A stretch of 64,000 bases of DNA. Origin: Kiritimatiellia bacterium. Lineage in GTDB: Bacteria; Verrucomicrobiota; Kiritimatiellia; JAKQHR01. Both the position numbers and the translations under genes were made by a program. The stretch is taken from assembly GCA_050178035.1 (NCBI GenBank), contig JBFXGK010000019.1:54-64053 (forward strand), given 5' to 3'. Positions 2,547 to 62,195 of this stretch are shown piece by piece (position 1 is the first letter of the stretch; the number at the start of each line of letters is the position of its first letter). A model generated the notes under the pieces. It did not search any database. It saw nothing but the letters and a program-made list of their open reading frames with translations, and had not been told where the DNA came from.

Positions 2547-4876
2547 ACGTCAAGGATTTGAAAGTTGTAAATCACTCCGTCGAAAAAGTGGACGCCATGG
2601 CGCTCGCGCTCGGCAAATCCCTCTATGTGGCTGACCTGAAGCCCGAGGACTGCCTGCACGTCAAGATGCTCTGGAGCCCGCACGCGCACGCGCGCATCAA
2701 GTCCATTGATGTCTCCAAGGCCGAGAAAATGAAGGGCGTCCACGCGGTGCTCTGGCACGGCAATGTGCCGCGCGTCGCACACTGCACCGCCGGCCAGGGC
2801 TATCCCGAGCCGTCGCCCTACGACACCTTCATGTTCGACACCAAGGTCCGCTATGTCGGCGACCGCGTCGCCGCCGTTTGCGCGGAAACCAGGGAAATCG
2901 CCCAGGCCGCCGTCGAGGCCATCAAGGTCGAATACGAAGTGCTTCAGCCCGTGCTCTCGATCTGGGACGCCCTCAAGCCGGGCGCGCCCATTATCCACGA
3001 CGAGCCCGACTGCTCGATTCCGATTCCCGTGCCCTATGAACCTCAAAACAATGTCGTTGCCCGCCTCGAAATGAAGGTCGGCGATGTTGAAAAGGCGTTC
3101 AAGGACTCGGATTTTGTTTTTGATGAGGAATACGAGACGCAGTACGCGCAGCACTGCCCGATGGAGACTTATGTCTGCTCGGCGCAGATTGACGCGCGCA
3201 ACCGCATCGTCATCACAACCAGCACGCAGGTGCCCTTCCACTGCCGGCGCATCGTCGCGCAGACGCTGCAGATTCCGGAAAAGCAGATCCGCGTGATCAA
3301 ACCCCGCATCGGCGGCGGCTTCGGCAGCAAGCAGGAAATCCTGCTGGAGGATGTCGTGGCCATGTTTGCGCTGCGGACCCAGAAGCCCGTGTTCTGGGAA
3401 TTCACGCGCCAGGAGAACTTCCTGACCGGACGCACACGCCATCCGATCCATTTCAAGATGAAGGGCGGCGTGAAGAAAGACGGGACCATCACCGGCTACA
3501 GCATGATCGCCACCTCCAACACCGGAGCCTACGGCGGCCACGGCCTGACCGTGATCGGCTGCTGCGGAAGCAAGGTGCTTCCGCTGTACCACATTGACAA
3601 CCTCTACTTCAAGGGGACCGTGTGCTACACCAACCTGCCGGTCGGCGGCGCCTACCGCGGATTCGGCGCCACTCAGGCGTTCTTCGGATTCGAGTCGCAG
3701 ATCGACATGATGGCCGAGGCCATCGGCATGGACCCGCTCGAGTTCCGCAAGAAGAACCACATCCTGCTTGGCGAAACCTCTCCGGTTTTCTCCGCGCTGG
3801 GCGAAGGCAAGGAAGGCGTGCCGATGGACATCAGCTCCTGCGCGCTGGATGAATGCATCCGCCAGGGCGCCGAGGAAATCGGCTGGAAGAACCGCACGCC
3901 TCACACCGGGAAATCGGGGCGCTACCGCCGCGGCATGGGCATGGCCTGCCTGATGCAGGGATCCAGCGTGCCGGAAATTGACATGGGCGCGGCCTCCATC
4001 AAGATGAACGACGACGGCTCCTTCAACCTGCTGATCGGCGCAACCGACCTCGGCACCGGAAGCGACACTGTCCTCGGGCAGATTGCCGCCGAAGCCATCG
4101 GGACGACGATTGACAAAATGATTGTCTACTCGTCCGACACCGACATGACGCCGTTCGATGTCGGCGCGTACGCCTCCAGCACGACCTATCTGAGCGGAGA
4201 GGCCGCCCGCAAGGCCGGTGCCAAGGTCAACAAGCAGATCCTTGAAGTCGCCGGGAAGATGCTGGACAAGAAGCCGGAAGATCTCGTGGCGGAAAACTCC
4301 GTTGTGACGGCAAAGGACGGCAGCGCAAAAGTGACGTTCGGAGAGATTGCGAAGTACTCGCTCTATATGAAGAACCAGTTCCAGATCATGGACTCGGCCT
4401 CGCACATCACGCACAAGTCCCCGCCCCCGTTTGCGGCCCACTTCGTCGAGATTGAAGTGGACACCTGGACCGGAAAAATCCGCGTGCTGAAGTACGTGGC
4501 CACTGTGGACTGCGGCACCGCCATCAACCCGAAGCTGGCCGAGGGCCAGACCGAGGGCGGACTGCTGAACGGAATCACCTACGCGCTGACGGAGGAGTAT
4601 CTGTTCAACGACAAGGGCCGCATGACCAACTCCACCCTGCAGCGCTATCATCTCTACTCGATGAGAGACCTGCCCAAGGTGAAGGCGATCCTGGTTCCGA
4701 GCTGGGAAACCACCGGCCCTTACGGCGCAAAGAGCGTTTCGGAAATCTGCATCAACGGCGCAGGCCCCGGAATCAACAACGCGCTCTACAACGCCTGCGG
4801 CATCCGGCTTCATTCCATGCCGTTCACGCCGGAAAAGGTGTGGAAGGCTCTTCAGGAAAAAGAGAAAAAGGCGTAA
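2543..4876 (+). CDS. Molybdopterin-binding large subunit of xanthine-dehydrogenase-family hydroxylase
   Basis: ATGA overlap with the upstream stop and RBS GGAGGTG. Start chosen at 2543 (MNVKDLK) rather than the ORF-track start at 2480, which overlaps the previous gene. Aldehyde-oxidase/XDH a/b-hammerhead and MoCo-binding signatures (GGGFGSK, AYRGFG). Confidence 0.85.
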   Translation: MNVKDLKVVNHSVEKVDAMALALGKSLYVADLKPEDCLHVKMLWSPHAHARIKSIDVSKAEKMKGVHAVLWHGNVPRVAHCTAGQGYPEPSPYDTFMFDTKVRYVGDRVAAVCAETREIAQAAVEAIKVEYEVLQPVLSIWDALKPGAPIIHDEPDCSIPIPVPYEPQNNVVARLEMKVGDVEKAFKDSDFVFDEEYETQYAQHCPMETYVCSAQIDARNRIVITTSTQVPFHCRRIVAQTLQIPEKQIRVIKPRIGGGFGSKQEILLEDVVAMFALRTQKPVFWEFTRQENFLTGRTRHPIHFKMKGGVKKDGTITGYSMIATSNTGAYGGHGLTVIGCCGSKVLPLYHIDNLYFKGTVCYTNLPVGGAYRGFGATQAFFGFESQIDMMAEAIGMDPLEFRKKNHILLGETSPVFSALGEGKEGVPMDISSCALDECIRQGAEEIGWKNRTPHTGKSGRYRRGMGMACLMQGSSVPEIDMGAASIKMNDDGSFNLLIGATDLGTGSDTVLGQIAAEAIGTTIDKMIVYSSDTDMTPFDVGAYASSTTYLSGEAARKAGAKVNKQILEVAGKMLDKKPEDLVAENSVVTAKDGSAKVTFGEIAKYSLYMKNQFQIMDSASHITHKSPPPFAAHFVEIEVDTWTGKIRVLKYVATVDCGTAINPKLAEGQTEGGLLNGITYALTEEYLFNDKGRMTNSTLQRYHLYSMRDLPKVKAILVPSWETTGPYGAKSVSEICINGAGPGINNALYNACGIRLHSMPFTPEKVWKALQEKEKKA

Positions 4877-4890
4877 TCATCACGAAAAAA

Positions 4891-4921
4891 CCGCCGCGCC
4901 CAAAAAGCGCGGCGGTTTTTT
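4891..4921 (+). terminator. Rho-independent terminator of the hydroxylase operon
   Basis: CCGCCGCGC-ccaaaaa-GCGCGGCGG stem-loop followed by TTTTTT. Confidence 0.7.
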
Positions 4922-5059: not shown

Positions 5060-5265
5060 CGTTCCGTTTTTCGCGAATAATTAAGAAAATGGTCGTTTTT
5101 AAGCGTTTTTGGCCTATTTTCGACGCTTTTTGGGCATTTTTGAGCATATTTTGCCGATTTTTAATGTTTTTTGAGCCTTTTCGGGATTTTTGAAGCGATT
5201 TTTGCGTGCTGTTTTGAATTTGTTTTATGAAGGCCGCTTTTCGTATGATCTGCGCAAATCAGGAG
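5060..5265. repeat. Phased T-tract tandem-repeat array (about 14 units of ~10-11 bp, consensus GGCnnTTTTTg); predicted intrinsically curved DNA; copy A of four
   Basis: Sequence runs ...gtcgtttttaagcgtttttggcctattttcgacgctttttgggcatttttgagcatattttgccgatttttaatgttttttgagccttttcgggatttttgaagcgatttttgcg... T4-6 runs recur every 10-11 nt. Shares words (tttttgagcat(a)ttttg, GGCC(a/g)TTTTTGG) with copies at 25.3, 41.6 and 45.6 kb. Confidence 0.6.
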
Positions 5266-5272
5266 TTCGCGA

Positions 5273-5791
5273 ATGAAAATGAAAGCGCTGGCGGAGGCGG
5301 TGGACCGGTCGGTTCCGTTTGTAATGAACGTGCAGAAGAAGTTCGGTCTGCAAACGCTGCTGCATTATTCCGACGGCTATGCGGCGCTGATGAAGAAGCT
5401 GGTCTGGCTCTCCCTCTCTCCCGTTCCCCAGAAAGATATCGAACTGCTGCTGAACCGCGAACGGAAGCTTCTCGAGGTGCTGAAGGTGGATTCGGTGTCG
5501 CACGAAAGCGACTGGTTCGAGCGCATGTGCGTCATGAAATCGGGCCCGTCCCGCCTGCTGCTGAGCGGCTATGACCTGAAGTGCCGCATTGACGGGGATG
5601 CCGTGCAGCCGGGGCTTGATTTTGCCGAGCGCGCCCGCGAACTTTTCGAGGATCAGGAAATGGGCGCAGACGCCCTGACGGCATTGAAAAACTACGCCGC
5701 GATTTTCAAAAGAGTCCGGGACCAGCTGGCGCAGGACATTCCCGCCATGGCCGCATCGCTGCGTTGGGCAAAGAGAATTGCGACCCCATGA
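5273..5791 (+). CDS. Hypothetical protein with possible N-terminal HTH
   Basis: Coding-like GC3 bias. N-terminal LAEAVDRSVPFVMNVQKKFGL resembles a helix-turn-helix. No family recognised. Confidence 0.45.
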   Translation: MKMKALAEAVDRSVPFVMNVQKKFGLQTLLHYSDGYAALMKKLVWLSLSPVPQKDIELLLNRERKLLEVLKVDSVSHESDWFERMCVMKSGPSRLLLSGYDLKCRIDGDAVQPGLDFAERARELFEDQEMGADALTALKNYAAIFKRVRDQLAQDIPAMAASLRWAKRIATP

Positions 5792-9709: not shown

Positions 9710-10255
9710 TCAAGTCAAATGACCGGCAAGAAATTCGGGCAAATATTTCATCCCGTCGAGGCGAAAATTCGCGGCGGTTTCAGTGCCGGAGGGGGCGATA
9801 CGCACCGTCCGGCAGCCCGCGGCAAGACCGGCGCGGACATCACTCTCATGATCCCCCACCATCCAGGAGCCGGGCAGGTCTAAATTGTGCCGGCGGGCCG
9901 CATCAAGCAACATGCCAGGAAGCGGCTTGCGACAATCGCACTCGTGATCGCCGTGCGGGCACACCATGATGTCCAGCAGCTCCAGGCCTGCCGCACTGAC
10001 CGCACTGCGCAAATGTTCATGAATGCGGTTGAGTTCATCCCATGTAATCAGGCCCCGTTCAATGCACCGCTGGTTGGTGACAATCACCGCGGCATAATCC
10101 CTTTGATTCACCACTCGCAGAGACTCCATGAACTCCGGCATAATGAAGAAGCGTTCCAGAGAGAGCACATAATATTCCTCGGGCGGCGGCGCGATATTCA
10201 CCACACCGTCCCGGTCAAAAAAAACGCACTTCCGCTTTTCAGTTTGCGTTTTCAT
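9710..10255 (-). CDS. gmhB: D-glycero-D-manno-heptose 1,7-bisphosphate phosphatase
   Basis: HAD motif I FDRDGVVN. GmhB zinc loop CPHGDHECDCRKPLPGML, close to E. coli CDCRKPHPGML. Confidence 0.85.
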   Translation of the reverse strand: MKTQTEKRKCVFFDRDGVVNIAPPPEEYYVLSLERFFIMPEFMESLRVVNQRDYAAVIVTNQRCIERGLITWDELNRIHEHLRSAVSAAGLELLDIMVCPHGDHECDCRKPLPGMLLDAARRHNLDLPGSWMVGDHESDVRAGLAAGCRTVRIAPSGTETAANFRLDGMKYLPEFLAGHLT

Positions 10256-22325: not shown

Positions 22326-23722
22326 ATTGTCTTCGCCTGCTTCATGTTTGAATTAATAAACCTGAACTTCCCATTCGGAGCACGCGGAATTGCATCCACA
22401 TACTCAAACCGGATGCCGATCTCATTTCCAAGCCTTATCCGGGCTTCCTGCATGATAAGCTTCTCGTCGCGCTCCGTATAAAATGATTTTTTAACTATTC
22501 TAAGAACCACCTCTTCCCGGCGGTCCTGGCATATCTGCGCCTCAGCCACATTCACGCTGTCCTTGAAAAGGTGATCCAGGCGGCCGACCATCCGGCCATC
22601 CGGCGTCAGAATGTAATCTTCGACGCGGCCAAGCACCTTGTCCACAAGGATGCCGGCACGCCCGCAGGCCGGTTCCTGTTTTGCGGAAAGGGTGACCACA
22701 TCGCCGACCTCATAGCGGATCAGCGGGAACGCAGGGTTTCCGAATCCCGTGCAGACCAGCCGGCCGGTTTCGCCGGGGCCACAGGGCTTGTCGTCATCGT
22801 TCAGCACCTCAACAAAGCTGTGCTCCAGCTTCATGTGCATTTCTCCGCACTCGCATTCCACAATATTGGCGCATATTTCCGTGTTGCCGTACCAGTTGAA
22901 CACCTTGCATCCGAACATTTCGCTGATCAGTGCGCGCTGGAAATCCAGCAGCGTCTCGGAAAACGTGTAGACCGCTTTCGGCCGCACCGCGCATCCGCCG
23001 AGTCTCTGCGCCTCAAGCGCCAGCAGATATATGGAAGACGGATACCCGCCGAGCATCACAGGCTGAAACCGTTCCAATTCGTGAATATAGTGCGGAAGAT
23101 TGCGTTCCGACATATGATAGGACGACATGAACAGATGATTGTTTGCATGATCATAAGTCCAGAACGGCGGCTTTATCTGACCCGGGCCGGTCACAGGATG
23201 TCCCGCGCAAAACGCAAACGGCCGGCGATTCAACAAACTGACGCGCCCCCATGAATAATGAATCTGCTTGTAGGCATATTCACGTTGAAAACAGCTGTTG
23301 GCCATTGGGAACACCAGCGCCTGTCCGGTTGTGCCGCTGGTGTGCACCATCCGATGGGGTATTTCCTTCAGATCAGAATTGATGAACTCGCGCGGACTGT
23401 TTTTCACAATGGATTTCGACAGCAAAGGCAGCCCAGAAAGATCTCCGGTCCTGGCCGCATCGACATATTCCGGCCGAGAAGCATAGTGCGGAGTCACGGG
23501 AACCATCTTCCGCAGAAACTGCGCGGTCTGCGCCTGCTGATAGGCCAGCAGAGACTCTCGCGGCCAGAACTGCAGTTGTAGCAGCAGCGCAAGATTGCTC
23601 ACGAAGTCGTCGCCATAGCGGGCATGCCGCTGCTGCAGGCCATAGGCGGTTGTTATCACGTTCTTTACAACTGCCGGCGACACATTGTACAGCCGCTGTC
23701 TAATTCCCGTTCCGTAACTCAT
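22322..23722 (-). CDS. CapK/PaaK-like adenylate-forming enzyme (coenzyme F390 synthetase family)
   Basis: HTSGTTGQ AMP-binding P-loop motif. Start set at MSYGTG (TAATG overlap with the upstream stop) rather than the track start at 23788. Confidence 0.7.
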   Translation of the reverse strand: MSYGTGIRQRLYNVSPAVVKNVITTAYGLQQRHARYGDDFVSNLALLLQLQFWPRESLLAYQQAQTAQFLRKMVPVTPHYASRPEYVDAARTGDLSGLPLLSKSIVKNSPREFINSDLKEIPHRMVHTSGTTGQALVFPMANSCFQREYAYKQIHYSWGRVSLLNRRPFAFCAGHPVTGPGQIKPPFWTYDHANNHLFMSSYHMSERNLPHYIHELERFQPVMLGGYPSSIYLLALEAQRLGGCAVRPKAVYTFSETLLDFQRALISEMFGCKVFNWYGNTEICANIVECECGEMHMKLEHSFVEVLNDDDKPCGPGETGRLVCTGFGNPAFPLIRYEVGDVVTLSAKQEPACGRAGILVDKVLGRVEDYILTPDGRMVGRLDHLFKDSVNVAEAQICQDRREEVVLRIVKKSFYTERDEKLIMQEARIRLGNEIGIRFEYVDAIPRAPNGKFRFINSNMKQAKTI

Positions 23723-25284
23723 TCGAGTTCCACATGCCCCGCCCAGCCGAAATGCGGGCGAAAATTGAGCAGCCTGTCCTTCGTCCATTTGTTAGGATCG
23801 CCAGACCAGCCGCTTTCATTGCTCACGACAGAAACATCTCCCGCGGCCAGCATCATATCGTGATGATCAAAGGCCCGCTTCACAAGGGGCAGTTTGTTTT
23901 CATCAAAGCCCATGATCCGGGCGCAGACGGCATCCACGGCCGCCGGATTGTCTCCGGCAATAATCAGGCCGGCGGGCCGCGCATCGCCGGCCACGGGACC
24001 ATTCCCCTCCATGGCGACAATGCCATCCACCACGGAAAGAAATCTTTTGGGCTCTCCGACAAACTTTCCGCCGGGTCTGCCATAGAAAAGGATGCGGTTC
24101 AAATCGAGGCACATTCTCCACACCGTGTCATTGCCATGCCAGTTGCCCGACCGCACCACCTCCTCGGTGCCGCCAAAGATTTTGTAGGCCAGTTTTTTCA
24201 GGCGGCGGGCGGCGGTCTGCATAAGGCGGCTGTGATTCATCAGTCCTTTTTTTGCAGCAAGCACCAGAGAATTTTCCAGGCGGCCACGGGCGCGAGCCTT
24301 GTCAAACTGATCGCCCCCGTTTTCCGGGGCGCCGATTACATAATGCGGCAGGCAGTTCTTGTTGGCATTGATGCCCACGAGACTCTTCAGGTTCACGGTC
24401 AGGCCGCATTTTTTATGCGTCTTGAGCTTGGGAACGCTGATAAACACATCCGCCGCCAGCGGCGAATTTGAAACTTCATATTCATGCTTCCCGCTGCTGT
24501 GATGGCGGTTGGTTTCCGCCACATCGTAATAGGCTCCGTAATAGGTTCTGCCTGCCCTGTCGTATTCCGCGAACATGCTGTTCGCACCCAAGTCGAAAAG
24601 CGACTTCCCGGCCGGATCACCTTTCAGCCTGATCCGGTCCGTGTAAATTCCGTCCTTCTCTATCCAGTGCTCGTCGCGCAGATCAATCAGCTCAATTTCA
24701 AATTGTTTCTGTTCCGCGTAGAGTTTGCGGATTTCATTCAGGCCCATGCGCTCCGTGATGAGATCCCATTTTGAATCTGTCTGAGGCCCGTCACCGATCT
24801 GAATGCGGCCCCGGCCTTGAAGCGCAATGTATACATAATCCACCACGGCACGAATCACCGAGCCATGCGTGATCACATAATCCCAGTCGTCGCACAGGCT
24901 GTGTTTATGGGCAATCATGTTGGGCTTGATGAAAACGGTCTCGCCCGGCCTGATCAGCCAGCCCAGCGGATTCCACGCGGCCGTGTTCCAATGAGGCAGA
25001 TCGTATCCAAGCAAATGGAAAGTGTCCCGCACGGCTTCATAAATCGTATTGGGCTGCGCCGCGCGCCCGCGCGTCAGCAGTTCCGGACAGGATTCAGACG
25101 GATGATACGGCGGCGCGGCGGGATACCGGCTGTCAGGTTTGTATGTGAGACCAACTTTCACAGAAAGCGGTCGCGACCCGGTTTTCGCCAAAGGCTTCGG
25201 CGTGGCAAGCGGAGCGCGACCCTCCAAATATAATATTTCCAGAAATTCACGATAATTTACCAAATTTAGGCAGAATTTGGCCAT
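23719..25284 (-). CDS. DUF362-family protein (uncharacterised, possibly Fe-S associated)
   Basis: VFIKPN, KTHKKCGLTVNLKSLVG and VDGIVAMEGNGP segments resemble DUF362 signature blocks. Confidence 0.55.
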   Translation of the reverse strand: MAKFCLNLVNYREFLEILYLEGRAPLATPKPLAKTGSRPLSVKVGLTYKPDSRYPAAPPYHPSESCPELLTRGRAAQPNTIYEAVRDTFHLLGYDLPHWNTAAWNPLGWLIRPGETVFIKPNMIAHKHSLCDDWDYVITHGSVIRAVVDYVYIALQGRGRIQIGDGPQTDSKWDLITERMGLNEIRKLYAEQKQFEIELIDLRDEHWIEKDGIYTDRIRLKGDPAGKSLFDLGANSMFAEYDRAGRTYYGAYYDVAETNRHHSSGKHEYEVSNSPLAADVFISVPKLKTHKKCGLTVNLKSLVGINANKNCLPHYVIGAPENGGDQFDKARARGRLENSLVLAAKKGLMNHSRLMQTAARRLKKLAYKIFGGTEEVVRSGNWHGNDTVWRMCLDLNRILFYGRPGGKFVGEPKRFLSVVDGIVAMEGNGPVAGDARPAGLIIAGDNPAAVDAVCARIMGFDENKLPLVKRAFDHHDMMLAAGDVSVVSNESGWSGDPNKWTKDRLLNFRPHFGWAGHVELE

Positions 25285-25345
25285 TTTTGGCCATTTTCAG
25301 GCTAATTATAACGATTTTTGGCATTATTCAGCCTTTTTTCATGAA
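25225..25345. repeat. Phased T-tract tandem repeat, copy B
   Basis: aatttaggcagaatttggccatttttggccattttcaggctaattataacgatttttggcattattcagccttttttc, with 10-11-bp periodicity. Located upstream of the 25284 start. Confidence 0.55.
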
Positions 25346-28381: not shown

Positions 28382-28515
28382 ATAAATGTGATCTGGAACT
28401 CAAGAAAGCAAAATATGAAGAATATCCCGCACGGAGGCACAGAGACACGGAGATATGCATTCCTATTGATCTAGTAAATCCTGTCTAAAGAAACGCTTCT
28501 TGTATACAAATTTAC

Positions 28516-38951: not shown

Positions 38952-40025
38952 TTATAAAAGGTCCACGACACGTTTCGCGGCATGACCGTCCCAGCCCTCA
39001 ATTCTGGCGGGTTTCGCATTATGGCGCGCGGCGAATTTCTCCCAAACTGTTTCAACAGGGTTCGCTTCAAGATCCAGCAGACTGTTGGTGCCCTCGCAAA
39101 TGGTAACGGGCCGCTCGGTGTTGGGGCGGAGGGTCAGGCACGGGATGCCCAGAAATGAGGTTTCCTCCTGAATGCCTCCGGAATCTGTGACCACGGTTCC
39201 GGCTCCGGCCATGAGTGCAAGAAATTCCACATAACCCATCGGGTCCAGAAGCGTTACGCCGGCCGGACATTCCAACCGGTGTTTCTGAAGCATCGCGCGC
39301 GTGCGCGGATGCACAGGGAAAATCACGGGGCCGGATTCCGCCACCCGGCCCAGCATGGTCATGATGCGCCCCAGCATCGCAGGCTCGTCCACGTTGGACG
39401 GCCGGTGCAGCGTTACCGCAAAATATTCGCGCGGCGTCAGCTCCAGCCGCTCGATGACATCGGACTTCGCTGAGATAGGAAGTATCTGGCAGAGACTGTC
39501 GATCATGACGTTGCCGACAAAATGAAATTTCTCCTGCGGAATGCCTTCCCGGAGCAGGTTTTTGTCCGCATCGCGGCAGCTTGTGAGCAGAATGTCGGAG
39601 ATGGAATCGGTCACAATTCGGTTGATCTCCTCGGGCATGGTGCGGTCAAAGCTACGGAGGCCCGCCTCGATGTGCGCAACGCGAATGCCCATTTTCACCC
39701 CCGTCAGCGCGCCGGCAAGAGTTGAATTCACATCGCCGGGCACAACCAGCAGATCAGGACGCAGCTGCTCCAGCAGCGGCTCAAGGGCGGTCATCACTTT
39801 GGCGGTCTGGACGGCATGACTGCCGGATCCGACCCCGAGGAAGTGATCCGGCGGGGGCATGCCGAAATCGCGAAAGAAAATGTCCGACATGACGGCGTCA
39901 TAATGCTGACCCGTATGAACAACAATCGGATCATATCCGCAGTCACGCGATTTGATTTCCCGCCAGACCGGGAAAATCTTCATGTAATTCGGCCGCACCC
40001 CAGCCAGCAACACAATCTTCTTCAA
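38952..40025 (-). CDS. UDP-N-acetylglucosamine 2-epimerase family protein (second copy)
   Basis: HIEAGLRSFDRTMPEEINR and GDVNSTLAG motifs. Divergent from the 32036 copy, so it could be the hydrolysing/NeuC-like or WbpI-like type. Confidence 0.8.
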   Translation of the reverse strand: MKKIVLLAGVRPNYMKIFPVWREIKSRDCGYDPIVVHTGQHYDAVMSDIFFRDFGMPPPDHFLGVGSGSHAVQTAKVMTALEPLLEQLRPDLLVVPGDVNSTLAGALTGVKMGIRVAHIEAGLRSFDRTMPEEINRIVTDSISDILLTSCRDADKNLLREGIPQEKFHFVGNVMIDSLCQILPISAKSDVIERLELTPREYFAVTLHRPSNVDEPAMLGRIMTMLGRVAESGPVIFPVHPRTRAMLQKHRLECPAGVTLLDPMGYVEFLALMAGAGTVVTDSGGIQEETSFLGIPCLTLRPNTERPVTICEGTNSLLDLEANPVETVWEKFAARHNAKPARIEGWDGHAAKRVVDLL

Positions 40026-40096
40026 AATACTCTCCGATCCTGCGTTTTCACTTCATTTCCTGCCTTCCTGAGTTCCTGATTCATATTTCTGTTTGT

Positions 40097-41038
40097 CTAC
40101 AGAATTTCATGCAGGCGGCAGATTTTTGCGTCGGGGGAGACATAGCGGGCTTCGCACTCCAATGAGGCGCCCGTTTTCTCGCGTACGGCGTCTCGAACTT
40201 TGCGCGTAAGCGCAATGACATCGGCAGAGGTTGCCTCACCGCGATTGACAATAAAATTAGCATGTTTTTCGCTGACCTCCGCATCGCCGATGCGAAGGCC
40301 CTTGAGCCCCGCGTCCTCAATCAGTTTTCCCGGCGGACCGAGATGCTCCAAATGCCGGGGCAGCGCGGCAAAGACGGATCCGCAGGACGGGAATTCAAGC
40401 GGAAATTTATTGGCCCTGAGCTTTAGCGCCTGCCGGGCACGTTCGCGAATCTTTTCGGGGTCTGATCTTTTGCATTCCAGCTCGACGTGCAGAATGACCA
40501 GGAGCCGTTCATGAAATACCGACCGGCGGTAACCGAATTCGCATTCATCATGACTGAGACGGATGACCTGCCCTTTCTCATCCAGCGCCCAGACCTGGCG
40601 GACGCGTTCCCCGATGGTGTAACCGCTGCAGCCCGCATTCATGAAGACCATGCCGCCCAAGGTGCCCGGGATGCCCTCCAGAAATTCAAAACCCGCAAGG
40701 CCTTCGTTTTCGAGGGCGTGCGTCAAATTGGCCGACCGGATACCGGCCTCCGCCAGCACACTGACCCCGTCAATGTTAAGTGATGAAAAATTCCGGCCAA
40801 AGCGGATCAGCGCGCCGCGAATACCCTCGTCATCGAACAGCAGCTTGGCTCCGCCGCCAATGACAGCATATTTCATCTTTTTTGCACGGACATACTGGAT
40901 TGCATTTTGAATCTGCCTGGCATTGCCGGGTTCGATCAGCAAATCGCAGGTTCCCCCGATTTTCCAGGAACAGTGCTGTTTCAACCCCGTATTCTTGCGG
41001 AAATACCCAAGATCCCTTTCATTCAGTTCAATGCGCAT
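40097..41038 (-). CDS. murB: UDP-N-acetylenolpyruvoylglucosamine reductase (UDP-N-acetylmuramate dehydrogenase)
   Basis: FAD-binding PCMH domain (KIGGTCDLL, AVIGGGAKLLF) and C-terminal MurB domain (GSVFANP-like SCGSVFA). Confidence 0.8.
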   Translation of the reverse strand: MRIELNERDLGYFRKNTGLKQHCSWKIGGTCDLLIEPGNARQIQNAIQYVRAKKMKYAVIGGGAKLLFDDEGIRGALIRFGRNFSSLNIDGVSVLAEAGIRSANLTHALENEGLAGFEFLEGIPGTLGGMVFMNAGCSGYTIGERVRQVWALDEKGQVIRLSHDECEFGYRRSVFHERLLVILHVELECKRSDPEKIRERARQALKLRANKFPLEFPSCGSVFAALPRHLEHLGPPGKLIEDAGLKGLRIGDAEVSEKHANFIVNRGEATSADVIALTRKVRDAVREKTGASLECEARYVSPDAKICRLHEIL

Positions 41039-41048
41039 GAAATATTCC

Positions 41049-41549
41049 CTACTTCAGCAGCACGTTCACGATCATTTTTTCCCAAAGCCACTGGGCCCGG
41101 TCGCGGAACTGTTTGAAGCGCTTCAGGCGTTTCTCGAAAAAGGCCCAGTCGGGATCTTTCTTTACACCTGTCTGCCGGTGCGCTGCGACCGCGGCTTCCA
41201 TTTCGCTCATTAGGGCATCAGACGCTTCAATCTTCTGAGCGATGGCATCCAGCAGGGCCTTGCGGAATATTTTTCCAAACTCCTCATTGGCGCGGTAGAA
41301 ATCCTTGCGGTCGCCCTTGACCCACACGCGACTGACGGCGCCCCACTGCTCGAGCTGACGCACGGCCATGCTGGCGCTCCCCTTGCTGATACCGAGATTG
41401 TGCATCAGGTCGGCCAGCGTCTGCGGCTCGCGACAGAAATAGAGGTGGGCAAAAATCTGGCCGATAATGCGGCCGGCGCCAAAGGATTGCGAAAAGTTTC
41501 CGGCAGACTCGACGAAACGCTGACGCAGATCTTTCAGTTCATCAGGCAT
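41049..41549 (-). CDS. GbsR/MarR-type winged-helix transcriptional regulator
   Basis: GRIIGQIFAHLYF...EPQTLADLMHNLGISKGSASMAVRQLEQWGAV matches the GbsR-family HTH. Start set at MPDELK. Confidence 0.6.
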   Translation of the reverse strand: MPDELKDLRQRFVESAGNFSQSFGAGRIIGQIFAHLYFCREPQTLADLMHNLGISKGSASMAVRQLEQWGAVSRVWVKGDRKDFYRANEEFGKIFRKALLDAIAQKIEASDALMSEMEAAVAAHRQTGVKKDPDWAFFEKRLKRFKQFRDRAQWLWEKMIVNVLLK

Positions 41550-41599
41550 GGCAACACCCCACAAGGCAGAAATTTCGGATTAGTGGAACGAAAGGAAAC

Positions 41600-41695
41600 G
41601 CTAAAAGGCTGAAAATAGGCAGTATTTAAGCGCTTTTTATAAGAATTATAACAAAGTTTTGGCCGTTTTTAATGCTTTTTAAGCATCTTTAGCCG
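41600..41695. repeat. Phased T-tract tandem repeat, copy C
   Basis: gcagtatttaagcgctttttataagaattataacaaagttttggccgtttttaatgctttttaagcatcttt. Located immediately upstream of the regulator gene. Confidence 0.5.
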
Positions 41696-41704
41696 GTTGT
41701 CGGG

Positions 41705-41887
41705 CTAAAACAGAGTGTAGATAAACGGAGCCACCGATGATCCGGCGACAATCAAAACGGACAGCAACAGCAGGACTATGACCACGGGGACAATCCACCA
41801 GGCCTTATTGTGCCACGCGAATTCGCCGAATTCTTTTAATAGAAGTCCGAGATATTTCAAAATCTTCATGGAGCAATTTCCCTGCAA
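41705..41887 (-). CDS. Small membrane protein, DUF5989/SxtK-like, carbamoyltransferase-associated
   Basis: 60 aa with a single C-terminal TM helix (WWIVPVVIVLLLLSVLIVAG). Sits 4 nt downstream of the carbamoyltransferase, as SxtK-like genes do. Confidence 0.5.
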   Translation of the reverse strand: MQGNCSMKILKYLGLLLKEFGEFAWHNKAWWIVPVVIVLLLLSVLIVAGSSVAPFIYTLF

Positions 41888-41890
41888 CGG

Positions 41891-43720
41891 TTAATCCAAT
41901 ACAAAGTCCGTCCGCCAGCTGGCGCTGTCCTGGAAGGGCGGCTGATGTTTTTTATCCAAAATGTAGGAACCCAGAACGAGATAGTCCATTTCGGTTCGCA
42001 TGAAACAGCGGTAGGCATCTTCAGGCGTGCAGACGATGGGTTCACCGCGAACATTGAAAGAAGTGTTGATAACAATACCATAGCCGGTGAGATCATCAAA
42101 GGCCTTGATAATAGCATGGTATCGCGGACTGGTCTCGCGGTTCACGGTCTGTACGCGGGCGGAATAATCCACATGCGTAATGGCCGGGATGTCAGAGCGC
42201 ACCTGGTTGATGCGCTCGCGAACGGAAAGCTTTTCGCTTTCATCCAGCCCAAGGCAGCGATCCTTGCGGACCCGGGCAACCAAAAGCATATAGGGCGACG
42301 GGCGGTCCAGTTCAAAGTAATCAGATGCTTTTTCCTCGAGGCACGACGGCGCAAAGGGCCGGAAGGACTCGCGGTACTTGATCTTCAAATTCATAATGGA
42401 CTGCATTTTGGGAGAACGAGCATCGCCAATGATAGAGCGCCCGCCAAGGGCGCGCGGGCCAAACTCCATACGGCCCTGGCATAGGCCTATGACATTTTCC
42501 TCCGCAATCAGCCGGGCTATAGTGCGGGCCCAGTCGGCTTCAGTCGGTCTCGTCGCGGGATATCCCTTTACCTGGAGGAACTCGCCAACTTCCTCATCGG
42601 AGAATTCGGGACCAAGATAAGCACCATTCATCTGATCATGCTTATTGTCAGCCGAACGGGGATTCCCCTTCACCTGATGCCAGACCAGGAGAGCACACCC
42701 GAGGGCTCCGCCGGCATCTCCCGCGGCGGGCTGTATCCAGATATCCTCAAACGGGCCTTCCCGCAAAAGGCGGCCATTGGCCACACAGTTGAGCGCAACG
42801 CCGCCGGCCATACAAAGATATTTTTCGCCGGTTATTTTGTGAACATGCCGGGCCATCCGCAAAACAATTTCCTCCGCGACCACCTGAATGGAGGCGGCGA
42901 TGTCCATTTCGCGCTCAGTGAGGTCCGATTCGGACTTGCGCGGCGGTCCGCCAAATAGTTCATCAAAACGGTTGTTGGTCATCGTCAAGCCGTCGAGATA
43001 GCCAAAATAATCGAGATTCAGCCGAAACGATCCATCCTCGCGCAAATCAAGAAGCTTATCCCTGATGAGATCAGCAAACACGGGTTTCCCGTAAGGGGCA
43101 AGGCCCATGAGTTTGTATTCTCCGGAATTGACTTTGAAGCCGGTAAAGTAGGTGAAAGCGGAATAAAGCAAACCAAGGGAGTGAGGAAAACGCAGTTCGC
43201 TGAAGATTTCCACTTGATTTCCCCTGCCGCGACCAATGGTGCTGGTCGCCCATTCGCCCACGCCATCAATCGTCAGGATAGCTGCGCTTTCATAGGGCGA
43301 GGGATAAAAGGCGCTGCCGGCATGCGACTCGTGGTGCTCCGGAAAGAACATTTCCGGCGGCATTTTGATGCCGGCCTGCTCCAGCGAGGCCTCAATCTCC
43401 GGTGGAATCCACAGTTTCTGTTTAAGCCAAAGGGGCAGGGCCATCATGAAGGAATTCAAACCTTTGGGGGCAACCCCGATGTAGGTCTCAAGAATGCGGG
43501 CAAACTTGTTGATGGGCTTGTCATAAAATGCAACCGCATCAAGCTGTCCCGACTGGATGCCACCCTCGGCAAGGCAATAGCGGACAGCATTAACCGGGAA
43601 GTTGGAATCATGTTTCTTGCGTGTAAAGCGCTCCTCCTGCGCGGCAGCTATAATCTGCCCGTCGCGCACAAGTGCGGCAGCCGAGTCGTGATAAAAAGCG
43701 CTGATCCCAAGAATATTCAT
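41891..43720 (-). CDS. Carbamoyltransferase (NodU/CmcH/SxtI family)
   Basis: N-terminal MNILGISAFYHDSAAALV, metal site EHHESHAGSAF and C-terminal YrdC-like half. Start at the TAATG overlap, not the track start at 43888. Confidence 0.85.
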   Translation of the reverse strand: MNILGISAFYHDSAAALVRDGQIIAAAQEERFTRKKHDSNFPVNAVRYCLAEGGIQSGQLDAVAFYDKPINKFARILETYIGVAPKGLNSFMMALPLWLKQKLWIPPEIEASLEQAGIKMPPEMFFPEHHESHAGSAFYPSPYESAAILTIDGVGEWATSTIGRGRGNQVEIFSELRFPHSLGLLYSAFTYFTGFKVNSGEYKLMGLAPYGKPVFADLIRDKLLDLREDGSFRLNLDYFGYLDGLTMTNNRFDELFGGPPRKSESDLTEREMDIAASIQVVAEEIVLRMARHVHKITGEKYLCMAGGVALNCVANGRLLREGPFEDIWIQPAAGDAGGALGCALLVWHQVKGNPRSADNKHDQMNGAYLGPEFSDEEVGEFLQVKGYPATRPTEADWARTIARLIAEENVIGLCQGRMEFGPRALGGRSIIGDARSPKMQSIMNLKIKYRESFRPFAPSCLEEKASDYFELDRPSPYMLLVARVRKDRCLGLDESEKLSVRERINQVRSDIPAITHVDYSARVQTVNRETSPRYHAIIKAFDDLTGYGIVINTSFNVRGEPIVCTPEDAYRCFMRTEMDYLVLGSYILDKKHQPPFQDSASWRTDFVLD

Positions 43721-44196
43721 TAGAACTGTTTCCTGTATCGCGAAACGTCCCCAACCGGCTTGCGAGATGTCCAATAGGTGGGTTCGGCCGTATGAATCTG
43801 GCGATGAAGAGGGTCCTTCCCTTTTAGTTTCAGCGCCAGATGCATAGGGAAGAAGCACAGATAGTAGAATGGCGTCAGTAGCACCCATGTAAGGACTTCA
43901 CCCACCCGTTGCCCCAGCCGCTTTCCAAAGCGTTCAATGGCGGAAAATACCGGTGGAATGAATAATCCCGACACCAGCACAACTCCGGAAAAACTCCAAA
44001 CAACAAACCCCATAGTCCTATGACCCAGCCGCCAGAAAAGAAAAGCGCCAATAACCGCCATAACCGCGGTTTGAATTACAGCTGCTTTTTTTGAATTTTG
44101 CCCTTTTGAGGCGTCAGCTTTTTTCGCTGCGCCTTCCCGCCAGGGCCAAACCACTGATGAAACCGTATTACTCATAGAACTGCTGTATCGATCCAA
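43720..44196 (-). CDS. SxtJ-like small membrane protein (putative)
   Basis: 158 aa with 3-4 TM helices. Overlaps the carbamoyltransferase start. Confidence 0.45.
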   Translation of the reverse strand: MDRYSSSMSNTVSSVVWPWREGAAKKADASKGQNSKKAAVIQTAVMAVIGAFLFWRLGHRTMGFVVWSFSGVVLVSGLFIPPVFSAIERFGKRLGQRVGEVLTWVLLTPFYYLCFFPMHLALKLKGKDPLHRQIHTAEPTYWTSRKPVGDVSRYRKQF

Positions 44197-44420
44197 TAAA
44201 CCTGCTCACTGAAGTTACGGCGGGTGTCTCTACAACAAAATGCCGGGCAATGAAAGGAAAAATCCGCAAGGTCAGCCGGCGGAGCCCCCACCCGGTTGAA
44301 TTCACTGCCGCTTTATTATTCGGCTTGCCCTGCTGGGTTTAATCGTTAAGCTTGCCAACCGGTTTGTGTCAGGTGAATTAGACACGAAATACAAGCGATC
44401 AGGAAAGCCGGAGCACAAAT

Positions 44421-45569
44421 ATGAAACCCAAGAAAACAAAGCAGACGCGGATTGCACGAAAAATCGGCCTGCTTGCTGCCAGCACACTGATCTCCTGTTT
44501 GCTGCTGGAGTTCGCCGTGCGGATATTTCTCGGCGACCGCATCGTTTTATTCCCGAGATTTCATGCCCGGGCCGAGTACGGGCCATACACCATCAGACGT
44601 TTGCGGCCAGACACCACTTTCCGTCATCGCAGCCGGGACGGATCCTGGAAATTCACTATCAACTCGCAGGGTTTCCGTTCAGCCGCGGATTTTCAGTATG
44701 AAAAACCGGAGGGAAATTTAAGGGTGATCTGCCTCGGTGATTCGCAAACCCAGGGCTTCGAGTGCCGTCAGGACAAAACATTTTCCGCAGTCATTCAGCG
44801 CTATCTCTCCAAACGCGGGGAAAATGCGGAAGTCATCAATGCCGGGGTCTCCGGATTCAGCACCGCCGAAGCTCTCGCCTTTCTGGAAAATGAAGGCATC
44901 CGGTACAACCCCGATGCCGTTGTGCTCGGTTTCTTTGCCAATGACATGGATGACAACATCAAAGCCGATCTTTTCAGATTAACCGAAGAGGGTCTGGCGA
45001 ACCATCGCTTCGAGCACATTCCCGCCGTCGGCATACTGGATGTGGTTGACCGTTGCCCGCCGCTGCGCTGGCTCTCTCAGAATTCGTATGCCTACTCCCA
45101 CTTGTTCAATACCGTATGGGAGTACAAAAAGAGCCTGCTGTTGAAAGAGGCTGAATACGCCGCCGCGACGGAGTTTGCGGCTGCCCAGAAAGACGAAGAT
45201 GCCCGCCTGACTGGGAAGAAACAACAGCTGACGGAAGCCCTGCTGGAACGCATGCATTCATTCTGCGAAAGCAACAATGTTGTCCTTGTTGTGCTGGATA
45301 TTCCTCAGCCGGGCAAGGAAGATCAGGACTTCCTGCCGTCCATTCCCGAAAAAATGGTGCAGTCTTTCAAGGAGCATTCGGATGCGCTTATTCTGAGTCC
45401 GGAAATCCTTGGAGATTATGACGGGCTGCTGGATTTTTTCGTGCCGCACGGCCAGCGCCATATTTCCGAAGCAACTCACATGCTGCTTGGAGCAGCGGCG
45501 GCAAAATCCATTCTGGAACAGTTGGAGGGCAGAAAATCATTGGAAATCGCTCCTGCCGTGGATTATTGA
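44421..45569 (+). CDS. SGNH/GDSL hydrolase-family protein (putative polysaccharide O-acyl esterase/transferase)
   Basis: N-terminal TM anchor. Block I VICLGDSQTQG carries the catalytic Ser. Gly (NAGVSG) and Asn blocks are present. Confidence 0.7.
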   Translation: MKPKKTKQTRIARKIGLLAASTLISCLLLEFAVRIFLGDRIVLFPRFHARAEYGPYTIRRLRPDTTFRHRSRDGSWKFTINSQGFRSAADFQYEKPEGNLRVICLGDSQTQGFECRQDKTFSAVIQRYLSKRGENAEVINAGVSGFSTAEALAFLENEGIRYNPDAVVLGFFANDMDDNIKADLFRLTEEGLANHRFEHIPAVGILDVVDRCPPLRWLSQNSYAYSHLFNTVWEYKKSLLLKEAEYAAATEFAAAQKDEDARLTGKKQQLTEALLERMHSFCESNNVVLVVLDIPQPGKEDQDFLPSIPEKMVQSFKEHSDALILSPEILGDYDGLLDFFVPHGQRHISEATHMLLGAAAAKSILEQLEGRKSLEIAPAVDY

Positions 45570-45589
45570 AGCACAAGTGCGGAAAAACC

Positions 45590-45690
45590 TGATAATTTTG
45601 TTCATTTTCCACGATTTCTGCTGTTTTTAGGCCGTTTTTGAGCATTTTTGGCTGTTTTTGAACGTTTTTTGCTTTTTTTAGGATATTCTA
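45590..45690. repeat. Phased T-tract tandem repeat, copy D
   Basis: ttcattttccacgatttctgctgtttttaggccgtttttgagcatttttggctgtttttgaacgttttttgcttttttta. Shares tttttgagcatttttgg with copy A. Confidence 0.55.
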
Positions 45691-45926
45691 CGTGTTTGGG
45701 GGCGCGTTTATCCACCAACCCGGAGGCAGACTTCGTCCCGGTGAAATCCCGGCGGGACGGGATTGCACGGACCGCAATCTAATTTCCGGACGTCACGCAT
45801 ACGCATAACGTTCAATACGCATTGAACATATCATACGACACGGCAGACGCAAGAACAATGCGCCAAAATCTTTTTTCTTGGGGGAGGCGGCTCCGGTCTG
45901 ATAGTCTCATAAACAGTGTTCTGACC

Positions 45927-62159: not shown

Positions 62160-62195
62160 TTCATTCCTCCGTTTTAATATTCACAATCCCGAAAC

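What the first reader, a model, noticed from the sequence alone, without database searches (positions are those of the whole stretch)
5060..5265. Dispersed family of helically phased T5-tract tandem repeats (four copies) at operon boundaries
Four intergenic sites (5060-5265, 25225-25345, 41600-41695, 45590-45690) consist of 8-14 tandem ~10-11-bp units with consensus GGCnnTTTTTg. They share longer words (tttttgagcat(a)ttttgg, GGCC(a/g)TTTTTGG). T/A-tracts repeated in phase with the helical pitch produce strong static curvature. Each copy sits directly upstream of a gene start (5273 +, 25284 -, 41549 -, 45927 +), at sub-operon junctions of the EPS locus and of the small HTH-like gene. Such a regular, sequence-related array is not a typical UP element. 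It looks like a family-specific regulatory or architectural element, for example a nucleoid-protein nucleation site, a thermosensing bend or a multi-site activator array.
Basis: seen in the sequence. Interest (0 to 1): 0.7.

Follow-up and report, generated by a model that had tools for sequence, protein, structure and literature searches.

The report
Phased T-tract bent-DNA islands at promoters
Four short AT-rich stretches in the polysaccharide gene cluster of an uncultured Kiritimatiellia bacterium consist of T/A runs spaced one DNA turn apart, which should bend the DNA strongly next to promoters; this is an unusually long example of a known kind of promoter architecture, not a new sequence family.

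Summary
The four sites are the four strongest 10-11-bp A/T-tract periodicities in the window. They are also its four most curved stretches in two wedge models (period 10.0-10.6 bp; no shuffle reaches them). They are 36-39% GC islands in a 56% GC Kiritimatiellia genome. The "sequence family" part fails: words shared between sites are no commoner than in shuffles that keep the tracts and scramble the spacers. Two quoted gene starts are off. Comparison with relatives was the most informative step. S1 lies at about -40 to -190 of a core promoter (TTGTTT-18-TATGAT) that is conserved in relatives lacking the array. At the S2 site and the S3/S4 site, close relatives also carry arrays. These mostly have unrelated sequence and opposite strand polarity. 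More distant relatives have none. What is kept at these sites is therefore tract phasing, not sequence. The best reading is intrinsically bent promoter-region DNA that acts through shape, by RNA polymerase contacts or wrapping and/or nucleoid-protein binding. Against this, one orthologous array sits between convergent genes. It is a new, unusually long member of a known kind, of modest interest.

The parts
4885..4921 (.). Bidirectional terminator-like hairpin (AAAAAACCGCCGCGC / GCGCGGCGGTTTTTT) that ends the upstream xanthine-dehydrogenase-type operon, about 145 bp before S1.
   Evidence: Perfect 15-nt inverted repeat with a 7-nt loop; sequence; conserved in L078-L080.
5066..5241 (+). S1 array: 15 runs of T>=4 (18 AnTn tracts), spacing 9-15 bp, best period 10.1-10.2 bp. 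Tract centres lie at -187 to -16.5 relative to the inferred +1 (5256).
   Evidence: Most curved site in the window. Conserved in L078-L080 and homologous to the L081 array.
5210..5249 (+). Conserved sigma-70-like core promoter of the 172-aa gene: TGTTTTGAATTTGTTTT (-35 TTGTTT at 5220-5225), 18-bp spacer, -10 TATGAT at 5244-5249. The +1 at about 5256 is inferred, not mapped.
   Evidence: Phylogenetic footprint across window, L078, L081, L083 and L086 (alignment A4).
5273..5791 (+). Gene downstream of S1: a 172-aa protein of a family found only in Kiritimatiellia. It has no Pfam domain and a weak MerR/RacA-like N-terminal fold.
   Evidence: Foldseek E>1, so suggestive only.
25226..25339 (+). S2 array: 11 phased AnTn tracts (only 4 runs of T>=4), period 10.0-10.2 bp. 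It lies between the stop of the beta-helix gene (25362) and the start of the DUF362 gene.
   Evidence: Arrays at the orthologous site in L207/L208 and L209/L210.
23719..25161 (-). DUF362 gene downstream of S2, with its start corrected to GTG 25161 (not ATG 25284).
   Evidence: Homology begins at ORF residue 52-54. Homologues are 480-482 aa. The L209 start ATGAAAGTGGG aligns with the window's GTGAAAGTGGG.
41570..41680 (+). S3 array: 9 phased tracts, A-tracts in the left half and T-tracts in the right half, period 10.6 bp. It lies between the DUF5989 gene and the GbsR/MarR-like HTH gene.
41645..41672 (-). Promoter-like site inside S3 on the gene strand: TTAAAA-16-TATAAT with an upstream TG (10 of 12 matches).
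   Evidence: This is a consensus match only, with no TSS data.
41049..41549 (-). GbsR/MarR-like HTH gene (166 aa). It is the first gene of the variable EPS biosynthesis operon throughout the class.
45594..45679 (+). S4 array: 9 phased T/AnTn tracts, period 10.0-10.1 bp. It starts 25 bp after the GDSL gene stop (45569), 240 bp before the methyltransferase start (45927), and about 40 bp beyond the 3' end of the minus-strand leader.
45727..45858 (-). Conserved non-coding element next to S4: TTGTTC (45858-45853), 17 bp, TATGAT (45835-45830), palindrome GTTCAAT-N4-ATTGAAC (45827-45810), then a leader with invariant ACCGGGACGAAGTCTG. In relatives it sits directly upstream of the HTH gene.
   Evidence: No Rfam match.

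Best explanation
The four sites are intrinsically bent, AT-rich DNA islands built from helically phased T/A-tracts. They lie in the promoter-bearing intergenic regions of the EPS/exosortase gene cluster of an uncultured Kiritimatiellia bacterium. They act on transcription of the adjacent unit through DNA shape, not through a repeated recognition sequence.

Proposed mechanism: the promoter-proximal tracts present narrow minor grooves on one helical face, at the positions used by UP-element-like RNA polymerase alpha-CTD contacts. The longer upstream part forms a 160-340 degree planar-to-shallow-superhelical bend. This bend could wrap back on RNA polymerase, fix the promoter at a plectoneme apex, or load shape-reading nucleoid proteins.

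Shown: the periodicity, the predicted curvature, the position of S1 relative to a conserved promoter, and persistence at the same sites with turnover of sequence and polarity. Inferred: that curvature really occurs, that it changes promoter output, and which protein reads it.
For: (1) Periodicity and phase coherence are far beyond chance, at 10.0-10.6 bp.
(2) These are the four most curved sites of the window in two wedge models. Summed turning is 161-338 degrees against 72-133 for controls.
(3) S1 ends at the -35 of a core promoter conserved across relatives with 74-99% protein identity. Tract centres lie at -42.5, -55, -67, -76.5 and so on. A terminator lies upstream.
(4) The property is kept while the sequence is not. 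At the S2 site, L209 has a homologous array (z=11.7). L207 (89% protein identity) has an array of the opposite polarity with no same-orientation similarity. At the leader-to-HTH site, L064-type genomes have a 270-bp array of opposite polarity with no detectable homology to S3 or S4. In every close-relative locus the array is the single most curved site.
(5) All six independent arrays have the helical period, which neutral slippage would not produce repeatedly.
(6) T-tract columns are more conserved than spacer columns (98.6 v 94.3%; 77 v 59%).
(7) HU-gene promoters in more distant Kiritimatiellia have three phased A-tracts abutting a conserved TTGTTT -35. Upstream tracts are therefore part of promoter design in this class.
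(8) Helically phased A-tracts upstream of bacterial promoters are an established phenomenon (PMC9825172 and its references 36-54).
Against: - The L081 orthologue of S1 is separated from the promoter by an oppositely oriented radical-SAM gene. It lies between two convergent gene ends, so an array can persist away from a promoter.
- S4 lies between the 3' end of the GDSL gene and the 3' end of the minus-strand leader. It is 240 bp from the next start codon.
- The same core promoters exist without arrays in relatives (L081, L083; L073/L075/L077), so the arrays are dispensable.
- 100-270 bp is far more than RNA polymerase contacts.
- Other promoter regions of the window (28382-28515, 44062-44420, 62160-62283) have no array.
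- No TSS, expression or binding data exist. The wedge parameters were entered from memory.
Confidence: 0.6

Rival explanations
1. Nucleation sites for a nucleoid-associated protein or xenogeneic silencer. On this reading the curved AT-rich islands mainly recruit an H-NS/Lsr2/Rok-like or HU/IHF-like protein. That protein silences or insulates modules of the horizontally variable EPS locus. The GbsR/MarR-like first gene acts as a counter-silencer, as SlyA does with H-NS at E. coli kps promoters. This overlaps with the best explanation; the difference is that the primary reader is a nucleoid protein and the default effect is repression.
For: - The islands are 36-39% GC in a 56% GC genome.
- Their length of 100-270 bp is beyond the reach of RNA polymerase.
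- Arrays are tolerated at non-promoter positions (L081, S4).
- Arrays sit at junctions where cassettes differ between relatives.
- A MarR-type regulator heads the operon.
- There is precedent for H-NS/SlyA control of capsule promoters and curved DNA (PMC8960920, PMC6070653, PMC4245942).
Against: - No H-NS-like gene was identified or searched for in this lineage.
- No binding data exist.
- S1 tracts are positioned exactly like activating upstream tracts.
- The analogy to SlyA is by family name only.
Confidence: 0.2
2. Non-functional by-products. On this reading the arrays are tandem 10-11 or 20-21-bp slippage repeats, or AT-rich recombination scars, left at sites where EPS gene cassettes were inserted or lost. 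They drift without selection.
For: - TRF detects tandem structure (period 10 at S1; period 20 with 82% matches at S4).
- Turnover is rapid and the arrays are absent from relatives at 60-74% identity.
- Arrays coincide with indels: the radical-SAM gene at S1 in L081, and a 4.2-kb cassette between S4 and S3.
- One array lies between convergent genes.
Against: - Six independent arrays all have the helical period of 10.0-10.6 bp.
- Phase coherence survives although the units have diverged to about 63% matches.
- Arrays recur at the same three intergenic sites in different species with unrelated sequence.
- Tract columns are more conserved than spacers.
Confidence: 0.12
3. Iteron-like array of binding sites for a sequence-specific regulator, as with ParR-parC or omega-heptad arrays. 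Candidates are the adjacent HTH proteins, recognising GGCnnTTTTTG units.
For: - There is a weak unit consensus GRCSR-T5-G.
- Putative DNA-binding genes lie directly downstream of S1 and S3.
- The word ACGATTTTTGGC recurs in S2, L081 and L207.
Against: - Shared words are not above a tract-preserving null.
- There is no alignable similarity between arrays at the same locus in relatives whose regulator is 90% identical.
- Polarity flips relative to the regulated gene.
- The same word type occurs in unrelated metagenomic organisms.
Confidence: 0.05
4. RNA-level element: the arrays are transcribed and act as U-tract (or A-tract) leaders, for example as binding platforms for an RNA-binding protein or as pause/termination signals.
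For: In L064-type genomes the array lies between a conserved promoter/leader and the Shine-Dalgarno sequence of the HTH gene, so it may be transcribed. Part of S3 lies downstream of its best promoter match.
Against: - S1 lies upstream of its conserved promoter.
- Polarity flips would give U-rich RNA in one species and A-rich RNA in another.
- There is no Rfam match.
- There are no hairpin-plus-U terminators in the arrays.
Confidence: 0.03

Closest known systems
Upstream phased A-tract activators and UP elements of bacterial promoters (E. coli rrnB P1 UP element; phage and Bacillus promoters with phased upstream A-tracts; C. perfringens plc). Named from my own knowledge; a general statement and references are in PMC9825172.
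   Same: - A/T tracts lie on one helical face immediately upstream of the -35.
- S1 tracts are centred at -42.5 and -55, where the proximal and distal UP subsites lie.
- Both A- and T-strand polarity are seen.
- The effect is expected to depend on helical phase.
   Different: - UP elements span about 20 bp and classical curved upstream regions have 3-6 tracts. S1 has 13 tracts upstream of the -35, and the L064 array has 23 over 270 bp.
- The arrays are restricted to EPS-locus junctions of one genus.
- One orthologue is detached from its promoter.
- Alpha-CTD dependence is untested.
A-tract clusters and the '10-11-bp structural code' of bacterial genomes (Tolstorukov et al. 2005, cited as ref. 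48 in PMC9825172; PMC4132750; PMC3940949; PMC3431218).
   Same: These are helically phased short A/T runs, interpreted as curvature or supercoil-loop determinants. They occur in many phyla.
   Different: The known signals are statistical, weak and genome-wide, and also occur in coding DNA. Here the arrays are discrete, strong and exclusively intergenic. Their period is about 10.1 bp rather than about 11 bp.
Kinetoplast minicircle bent segment (Crithidia/Leishmania; from my own knowledge).
   Same: It is the closest in form: about 16-18 A4-6 tracts in about 200 bp, nearly all on one strand, with a 10-bp period and G/C-rich spacers such as GGCAAAAAATGCCAAAAA.
   Different: It belongs to a eukaryotic organelle and is unrelated to promoters. 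There is no evolutionary relationship; the similarity is a convergent physical design.
H-NS-bound curved DNA at capsule and virulence promoters (E. coli kps PR1/PR3 with SlyA, PMC8960920; rcsA upstream curved region, PMC6070653; Shigella virF thermosensor, PMC4245942).
   Same: There is AT-rich curved DNA around promoters of a surface-polysaccharide locus, and a MarR-family regulator is encoded at the locus.
   Different: No H-NS homologue is known here. Those H-NS sites are not regular tract arrays. Temperature or silencer dependence is untested here.
Campylobacter jejuni RpoD promoters, which have a periodic T-rich signal instead of a -35 box (Petersen et al. 2003, ref. 45 in PMC9825172), and Synechocystis promoters phased with A-tracts (PMC9825172).
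   Same: A periodic A/T-tract signal extends upstream from the -10. At S2 and L209 the conserved proximal ATATTTGGAGG has no conserved -35.
   Different: Those are genome-wide promoter features in AT-rich or polyploid genomes. Here only a few loci in a GC-rich genome are involved, and S1 keeps a recognisable -35.
Iteron or centromere arrays phased with the helix (R1 parC/ParR, pSM19035 omega heptads; from my own knowledge).
   Same: These are tandem 7-11-bp units upstream of or around promoters, with several arrays per replicon.
   Different: Iterons conserve a recognition sequence in each unit and co-vary with their binding protein. Here only the T-tract is kept.

Membership tests
Helically phased A-tract (intrinsically bent) DNA | Runs of >=4 A/T without TpA steps | tested here: met
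   There are 15, 4, 4 and 8 runs of T>=4, plus AnTn tracts, giving 18, 11, 9 and 9 tracts per site.
Helically phased A-tract (intrinsically bent) DNA | Tracts repeated at the helical period over several turns, on one face | tested here: met
   Best periods are 10.0-10.6 bp and resultant length is 0.68-0.94. Fourier power exceeds all shuffles.
Helically phased A-tract (intrinsically bent) DNA | Predicted static curvature well above the genomic background | tested here: met
   These are the top four sites of 64 kb in two wedge models. Summed turning is 161-338 degrees. Model parameters were recalled from memory.
Helically phased A-tract (intrinsically bent) DNA | Anomalously slow, temperature-dependent gel migration | not testable with these tools
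   This needs PAGE of PCR fragments at 4 and 50 degrees C.
UP element / upstream A-tract activator | AT-rich tracts between about -38 and -60, adjacent to the -35 of a sigma-70-type promoter | tested here: inconclusive
   It is met for S1 with an inferred +1: tracts at -42.5 and -55 upstream of the conserved TTGTTT-18-TATGAT. The promoters of S2-S4 are not established.
UP element / upstream A-tract activator | Activation depends on the RNA polymerase alpha C-terminal domain and on helical phase | not testable with these tools
   This needs in-vitro transcription or reporter assays.
Iteron / multi-site operator array for a sequence-specific protein | Each unit carries a conserved recognition sequence shared between arrays | tested here: not met
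   Shared 8-mers are not above a tract-preserving null. The spacer consensus is weak. There is no homology between same-locus arrays of relatives.
Invertible promoter (inverton) | Flanking inverted repeats, and both orientations present in a population | tested here: not met
   No flanking inverted repeats were found. All 10, 3, 2 and 2 contigs per species have one orientation. Read-level data were not available.
Sigma-54 promoter | TGGCAC-N5-TTGCW at -24/-12 | tested here: not met
   There are 90 matches at <=3 mismatches against 122 expected. Only two weak matches fall in S4, and both lack the GG.
Known RNA family (Rfam 15) | Match to a covariance model | tested here: not met
   There are no hits at gathering thresholds in the window. 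The only hit at 45500-46000 is a chance mir-33 match, E=0.35.
H-NS-type silencer nucleation site | AT-rich curved DNA bound by an H-NS/Lsr2/Rok/MvaT-like protein encoded in the genome | not tested
   AT-richness and curvature are met. The presence of such a protein and its binding were not examined.

The most novel reading that the evidence does not exclude
Kiritimatiellia of this genus may use long (100-270 bp) phased-tract islands as a dedicated, shape-read control layer for modular EPS loci. On this reading the islands are nucleation or insulation sites for a lineage-specific nucleoid protein, and the GbsR/MarR-like first gene acts as counter-silencer. The same islands would serve as preferred breakpoints where cassettes are inserted, lost or inverted. 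This would explain why arrays flank the 4.2-kb cassette (S4/S3) and why the radical-SAM gene sits between array and promoter in L081. It would also explain why polarity differs between species at the same site.
Probability: 0.12. Interest if true: 0.65.

Novelty: new member of a known kind. Interest (0 to 1): 0.32.

Why it matters
If the arrays work as inferred, they are a clean natural example of selection on DNA shape rather than sequence. The same intergenic sites keep a helically phased tract array across species, while its sequence and even its strand polarity are replaced. They would also be the first described promoter-architecture feature in Kiritimatiellia, a class with no promoter studies found in the literature search. 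They mark likely internal promoters or regulatory junctions of a large exosortase/EPS locus. Practically, they give defined fragments for gel-curvature, reporter and pull-down experiments. The general phenomenon is well known, however, so the conceptual gain is modest.

Tried and rejected
(1) Common-descent or mobile sequence family. Shared-word and local-alignment tests used tract-preserving shuffles. Only true orthologues are significant: S1-L081 (z=8.7) and S2-L209 (z=11.7). Pairs among S1-S4 are not.

(2) Invertible promoter. There are no flanking inverted repeats and one orientation per species. L207 shows weak reverse-orientation similarity to S2 (z=4.7; blastn E=3e-5). However, units such as TTGGCCAA are self-complementary, and the whole L207 intergenic region is different. 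I therefore treat inversion as unproven.

(3) Sigma-54 promoters arising from GG-N10-GC periodicity: rejected.

(4) Known RNA families: none found.

(5) Terminator function: no hairpin-plus-T sites in the arrays.

(6) Metagenome-wide pattern scan for TTTTT-N5-TTTTTGGC-N2-4-TTTT-N4-7-TTTT. None is related to this genus (no blastn match at E<=1e-10). Most are low-GC and 20 of the 36 analysed lie inside long ORFs. This was unproductive for context. It shows only that such words are not lineage-specific.

(7) The genome-contig scan with MurB gave only one close relative, a 4.5-kb contig.

(8) Identity of the 172-aa protein. It has no Pfam or PDB sequence match. The AF2 model has pLDDT 72. There is only weak MerR/RacA-like similarity of the N-terminal 60 residues (E>1), which is not enough to link it to the arrays.

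(9) Replication-strand explanation for all T-tracts being on the + strand. This is not supported, because polarity differs between relatives at the same site.

Full report
OBSERVATION

The four sites read as described. S1 (5066-5241) has 15 runs of T>=4 spaced 9-15 bp apart, and S4 (45594-45679) has 8-9. S2 (25226-25339) and S3 (41570-41680) have only four T>=4 runs each. They are nevertheless equally periodic once AnTn tracts (AAATT, AATTT, AAAA) are counted.

In a sliding 100-bp Fourier scan the four sites are the four best in the window, with power 5.4-8.5 against 2.8 for the fifth. Their periods are 10.1-10.7 bp. Second-order Markov windows of 64 kb reach at most 1.6 for T-tracts. Shuffles of each site never reach the observed value. 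Tract centres are phase-coherent (R = 0.68-0.94). The sites are 36-39% GC in a genome of about 56% GC.

Two dinucleotide wedge models, with parameters entered from memory, rank the same four sites as the most curved 105-bp windows. End-to-end/contour is 0.42-0.74 against a median of 0.98. Summed turning is 161-338 degrees against 72-133 for controls. All tracts are on the + strand, although the flanking genes are + at S1 and S4 and - at S2 and S3.

WHAT DID NOT HOLD

The consensus GGCnnTTTTTg is weak. Words shared between the four sites are no more frequent than in shuffles that keep the tracts and permute the spacer letters (p = 0.05-0.43 in the T-strand orientation).

The start at 25284 lies inside the array. 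Homologues of 480-482 aa and the L209 orthologue place the DUF362 start at GTG 25161.

S4 is 240 bp from the 45927 start. A conserved minus-strand element lies between them.

CONTEXT

The window is from an uncultured Kiritimatiellia bacterium. L001 (Logan SRR27751817) is identical to window 39618-47643. The nearest named relatives are Kiritimatiellia or 'Verrucomicrobiota' MAGs.

Positions from about 5 to 53 kb form an exosortase/EPS cluster:
- EpsH/EpsI, a sugar transferase and glycosyltransferases;
- Wzz-kinase, Poly_export and Wzy_C;
- a GbsR/MarR-like HTH gene that heads the variable biosynthesis operon throughout the class.

S1 follows a perfect bidirectional terminator hairpin at 4885-4921.

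COMPARATIVE ANATOMY, SITE S1

The region directly upstream of the 172-aa gene is conserved across relatives with 74-99% protein identity. It reads TGTTTTGAAwTTGTTTT, then 17-18 bp, then TATGAT or TATAGT, then about 12 nt, then CAGGAG, then about 6-11 nt before the ATG. This is a sigma-70-like core promoter, with -35 TTGTTT at 5220-5225 and -10 at 5244-5249. With +1 inferred at about 5256, the tract centres fall at -42.5, -55, -67, -76.5, -86.5 and so on out to -187.

The array is present in window and in L078-L080, which are about 91-94% identical in DNA. It is absent in L083-L086, where a terminator abuts the promoter. In L081 (83% protein identity) a clearly homologous array exists (alignment A1; z = 8.7). 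There, however, an oppositely oriented radical-SAM gene lies between the array and the promoter. The array therefore sits between two convergent gene ends.

T-tract columns are more conserved than spacer columns (98.6 v 94.3% to L078; 77 v 59% to L081). This has the caveat that low-complexity alignment favours T-T matches.

COMPARATIVE ANATOMY, SITE S2

The beta-helix | DUF362 junction is syntenic in L207/L208 (89% protein identity) and L209/L210 (86%). In each locus it holds that locus's only strong array and its most curved site.

L209 is homologous to S2 in the same orientation (z = 11.7). It shares the proximal ATATTTGGAGGrTCGCGCTCC.

L207 has mostly T-tracts on the operon strand, the opposite polarity, and a different proximal region. 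It has no same-orientation similarity and only weak reverse-orientation similarity (z = 4.7).

COMPARATIVE ANATOMY, SITES S3 AND S4

In all relatives the HTH gene is preceded by a conserved element. It consists of a promoter-like hexamer pair, the palindrome (AC)GTTCAA-N5-6-TTGAACGT, and a leader with invariant ACCGGGACGAAGTCTG.

In relatives at 60% identity (L073, L075, L077), about 80 GC-rich nt link this leader to the start codon and there is no array. In L064-type genomes (90% identity), a 270-bp array of 23 tracts fills that interval. Its T-tracts are on the operon strand.

In the window the leader lies at 45858-45727 on the minus strand. It is followed in order by S4, a 4.2-kb block absent from L064 (GDSL on the opposite strand; 113-aa gene, carbamoyltransferase, DUF5989), S3, and then the HTH gene. 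S3 and S4 have A-polarity on the operon strand. They show no detectable homology to the L064 array in either orientation.

Three intergenic sites therefore keep an array across species, while its sequence and polarity are replaced at two of them.

OTHER PROMOTER EVIDENCE

S3 contains TTAAAA-16-TGtTATAAT on the gene strand, with A-tracts at about -38 and -49. S4 ends in TTGAAC-18-GATATT on the + strand; I read this from the sequence and it falls below the scan threshold.

HU-gene promoters of L073, L075 and L077 carry three phased A-tracts abutting a conserved cacTTGTTTTGC-N14-ccACAATG.

Other promoter-containing gaps in the window (28382-28515, 44062-44420, 62160-62283) have no array.

INTERPRETATION

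The feature kept by evolution is tract phasing at the helical repeat, in AT-rich islands next to promoters. Neither a motif nor a strand is kept. This fits the established class of intrinsically bent upstream DNA and UP-like A-tract elements (PMC9825172 and references therein).

The most likely mechanism is shape-mediated control of initiation:
- Proximal tracts contact RNA polymerase, and in S1 they occupy UP-subsite positions.
- The long distal part wraps DNA, fixes a plectoneme apex, or loads nucleoid proteins.

A silencer or nucleoid-protein reading is a serious variant. It is favoured by the arrays' length, by the AT islands in a variable EPS locus, by the MarR-type gene, and by arrays tolerated away from promoters. 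It has precedent at E. coli capsule promoters (PMC8960920, PMC6070653).

Neutral slippage or recombination scars are disfavoured. All six independent arrays have periods of 10.0-10.6 bp, and arrays recur at the same sites. The rapid turnover and the L081 and S4 contexts keep this rival alive.

Sequence-specific iterons, invertons, sigma-54 promoters, terminators and known RNAs were tested and not supported.

LIMITS

- There are no TSS, expression or binding data.
- Promoters other than that of S1 rest on consensus matches.
- Curvature is modelled, not measured.
- Genus-level sequence available to me is about 150 kb, all in or near the EPS cluster. A genome-wide test of placement could not be done.
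- The metagenome pattern scan returned only unrelated contigs.

VERDICT

This is a real and statistically strong structural feature. Its sequence-family aspect is over-interpreted, while its physical and architectural reading is essentially right. It is a new and unusually long instance of a known kind of element. The position-conserved, sequence-unconserved evolutionary pattern is its most interesting aspect.

Noticed in passing
window 45727-45858 (minus strand); L064 9520-9700; L073/L075 9790-9960; L077 9805-9960: A conserved non-coding element lies upstream of the GbsR/MarR-like HTH gene across Kiritimatiellia. It has a promoter-like hexamer pair, an invariant palindrome GTTCAA-N5-6-TTGAAC(GT) overlapping the -10/+1 region (operator-like, possibly autoregulation), and a leader with invariant ACCGGGACGAAGTCTG in a hairpin loop. 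There is no Rfam match and little covariation in 7 sequences. In the window it is detached from the HTH gene by 4.2 kb.
   Followed up: partly
window 62244-62324; L083 19431-19511: Three copies of the 15-bp palindrome TTCCAAnCATTGGAA are spaced 31 bp apart in an intergenic region (TRF period 31). They are 81% conserved in a relative. This looks like a triple operator for a dimeric regulator.
   Followed up: no
window 41551-45727 and 45927-46748, compared with L002/L064: A 4.2-kb block (GDSL lipase on the + strand; 113-aa gene, carbamoyltransferase and DUF5989 on the - strand) and a methyltransferase gene are present in the window. They are absent from L064-type relatives, where the leader, one array and the HTH gene are contiguous.
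   Followed up: partly
L081 2118-2861 compared with window about 5190-5210: In the 83%-identity relative a radical-SAM gene of opposite orientation lies between the S1-homologous array and the conserved core promoter. This leaves the array between convergent gene ends.
   Followed up: partly
window 4614-4872 compared with L078 4960-5218 and 9341-9600: L078 carries a 4.1-kb insertion (Usp, ferredoxin, FGE-sulfatase and other genes) flanked by a direct duplication of about 260 bp from the 3' end of the Mo-cofactor dehydrogenase gene. The window has a single copy and no insertion.
   Followed up: no
L073 about 140-190, L075 about 170-220, L077 about 1585-1625: HU (Bac_DNA_binding) gene promoters in more distant Kiritimatiellia have three phased A5-7 tracts directly upstream of a conserved cacTTGTTTTGC-N14-ccACAATG. 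This is a compact UP-like arrangement.
   Followed up: partly
window 5273-5791: The 172-aa protein belongs to a small family seen only in Kiritimatiellia (40 clusters, including Pontiella desulfatans PDESU_06166). It is always next to two small divergent genes and a coiled-coil protein beside the exosortase genes. The AF2 model suggests an N-terminal MerR/RacA-like winged helix and a long C-terminal helix (not significant).
   Followed up: partly
window 28430-28453; L207 about 9945-9965: A CACAGAGAC/CACGGAGA-type short tandem motif occurs in another EPS intergenic region of the window. A similar motif occurs in the L207 region between its array and the DUF362 start.
   Followed up: no
window 25199-25232 (minus strand); L209 about 5440-5465: A proximal motif ATATTTGGAGGrTCGCGCTCCG is conserved between the window and L209, just upstream of the DUF362 gene. 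It may be the -10/+1 region of the S2-associated promoter or a small hairpin.
   Followed up: no
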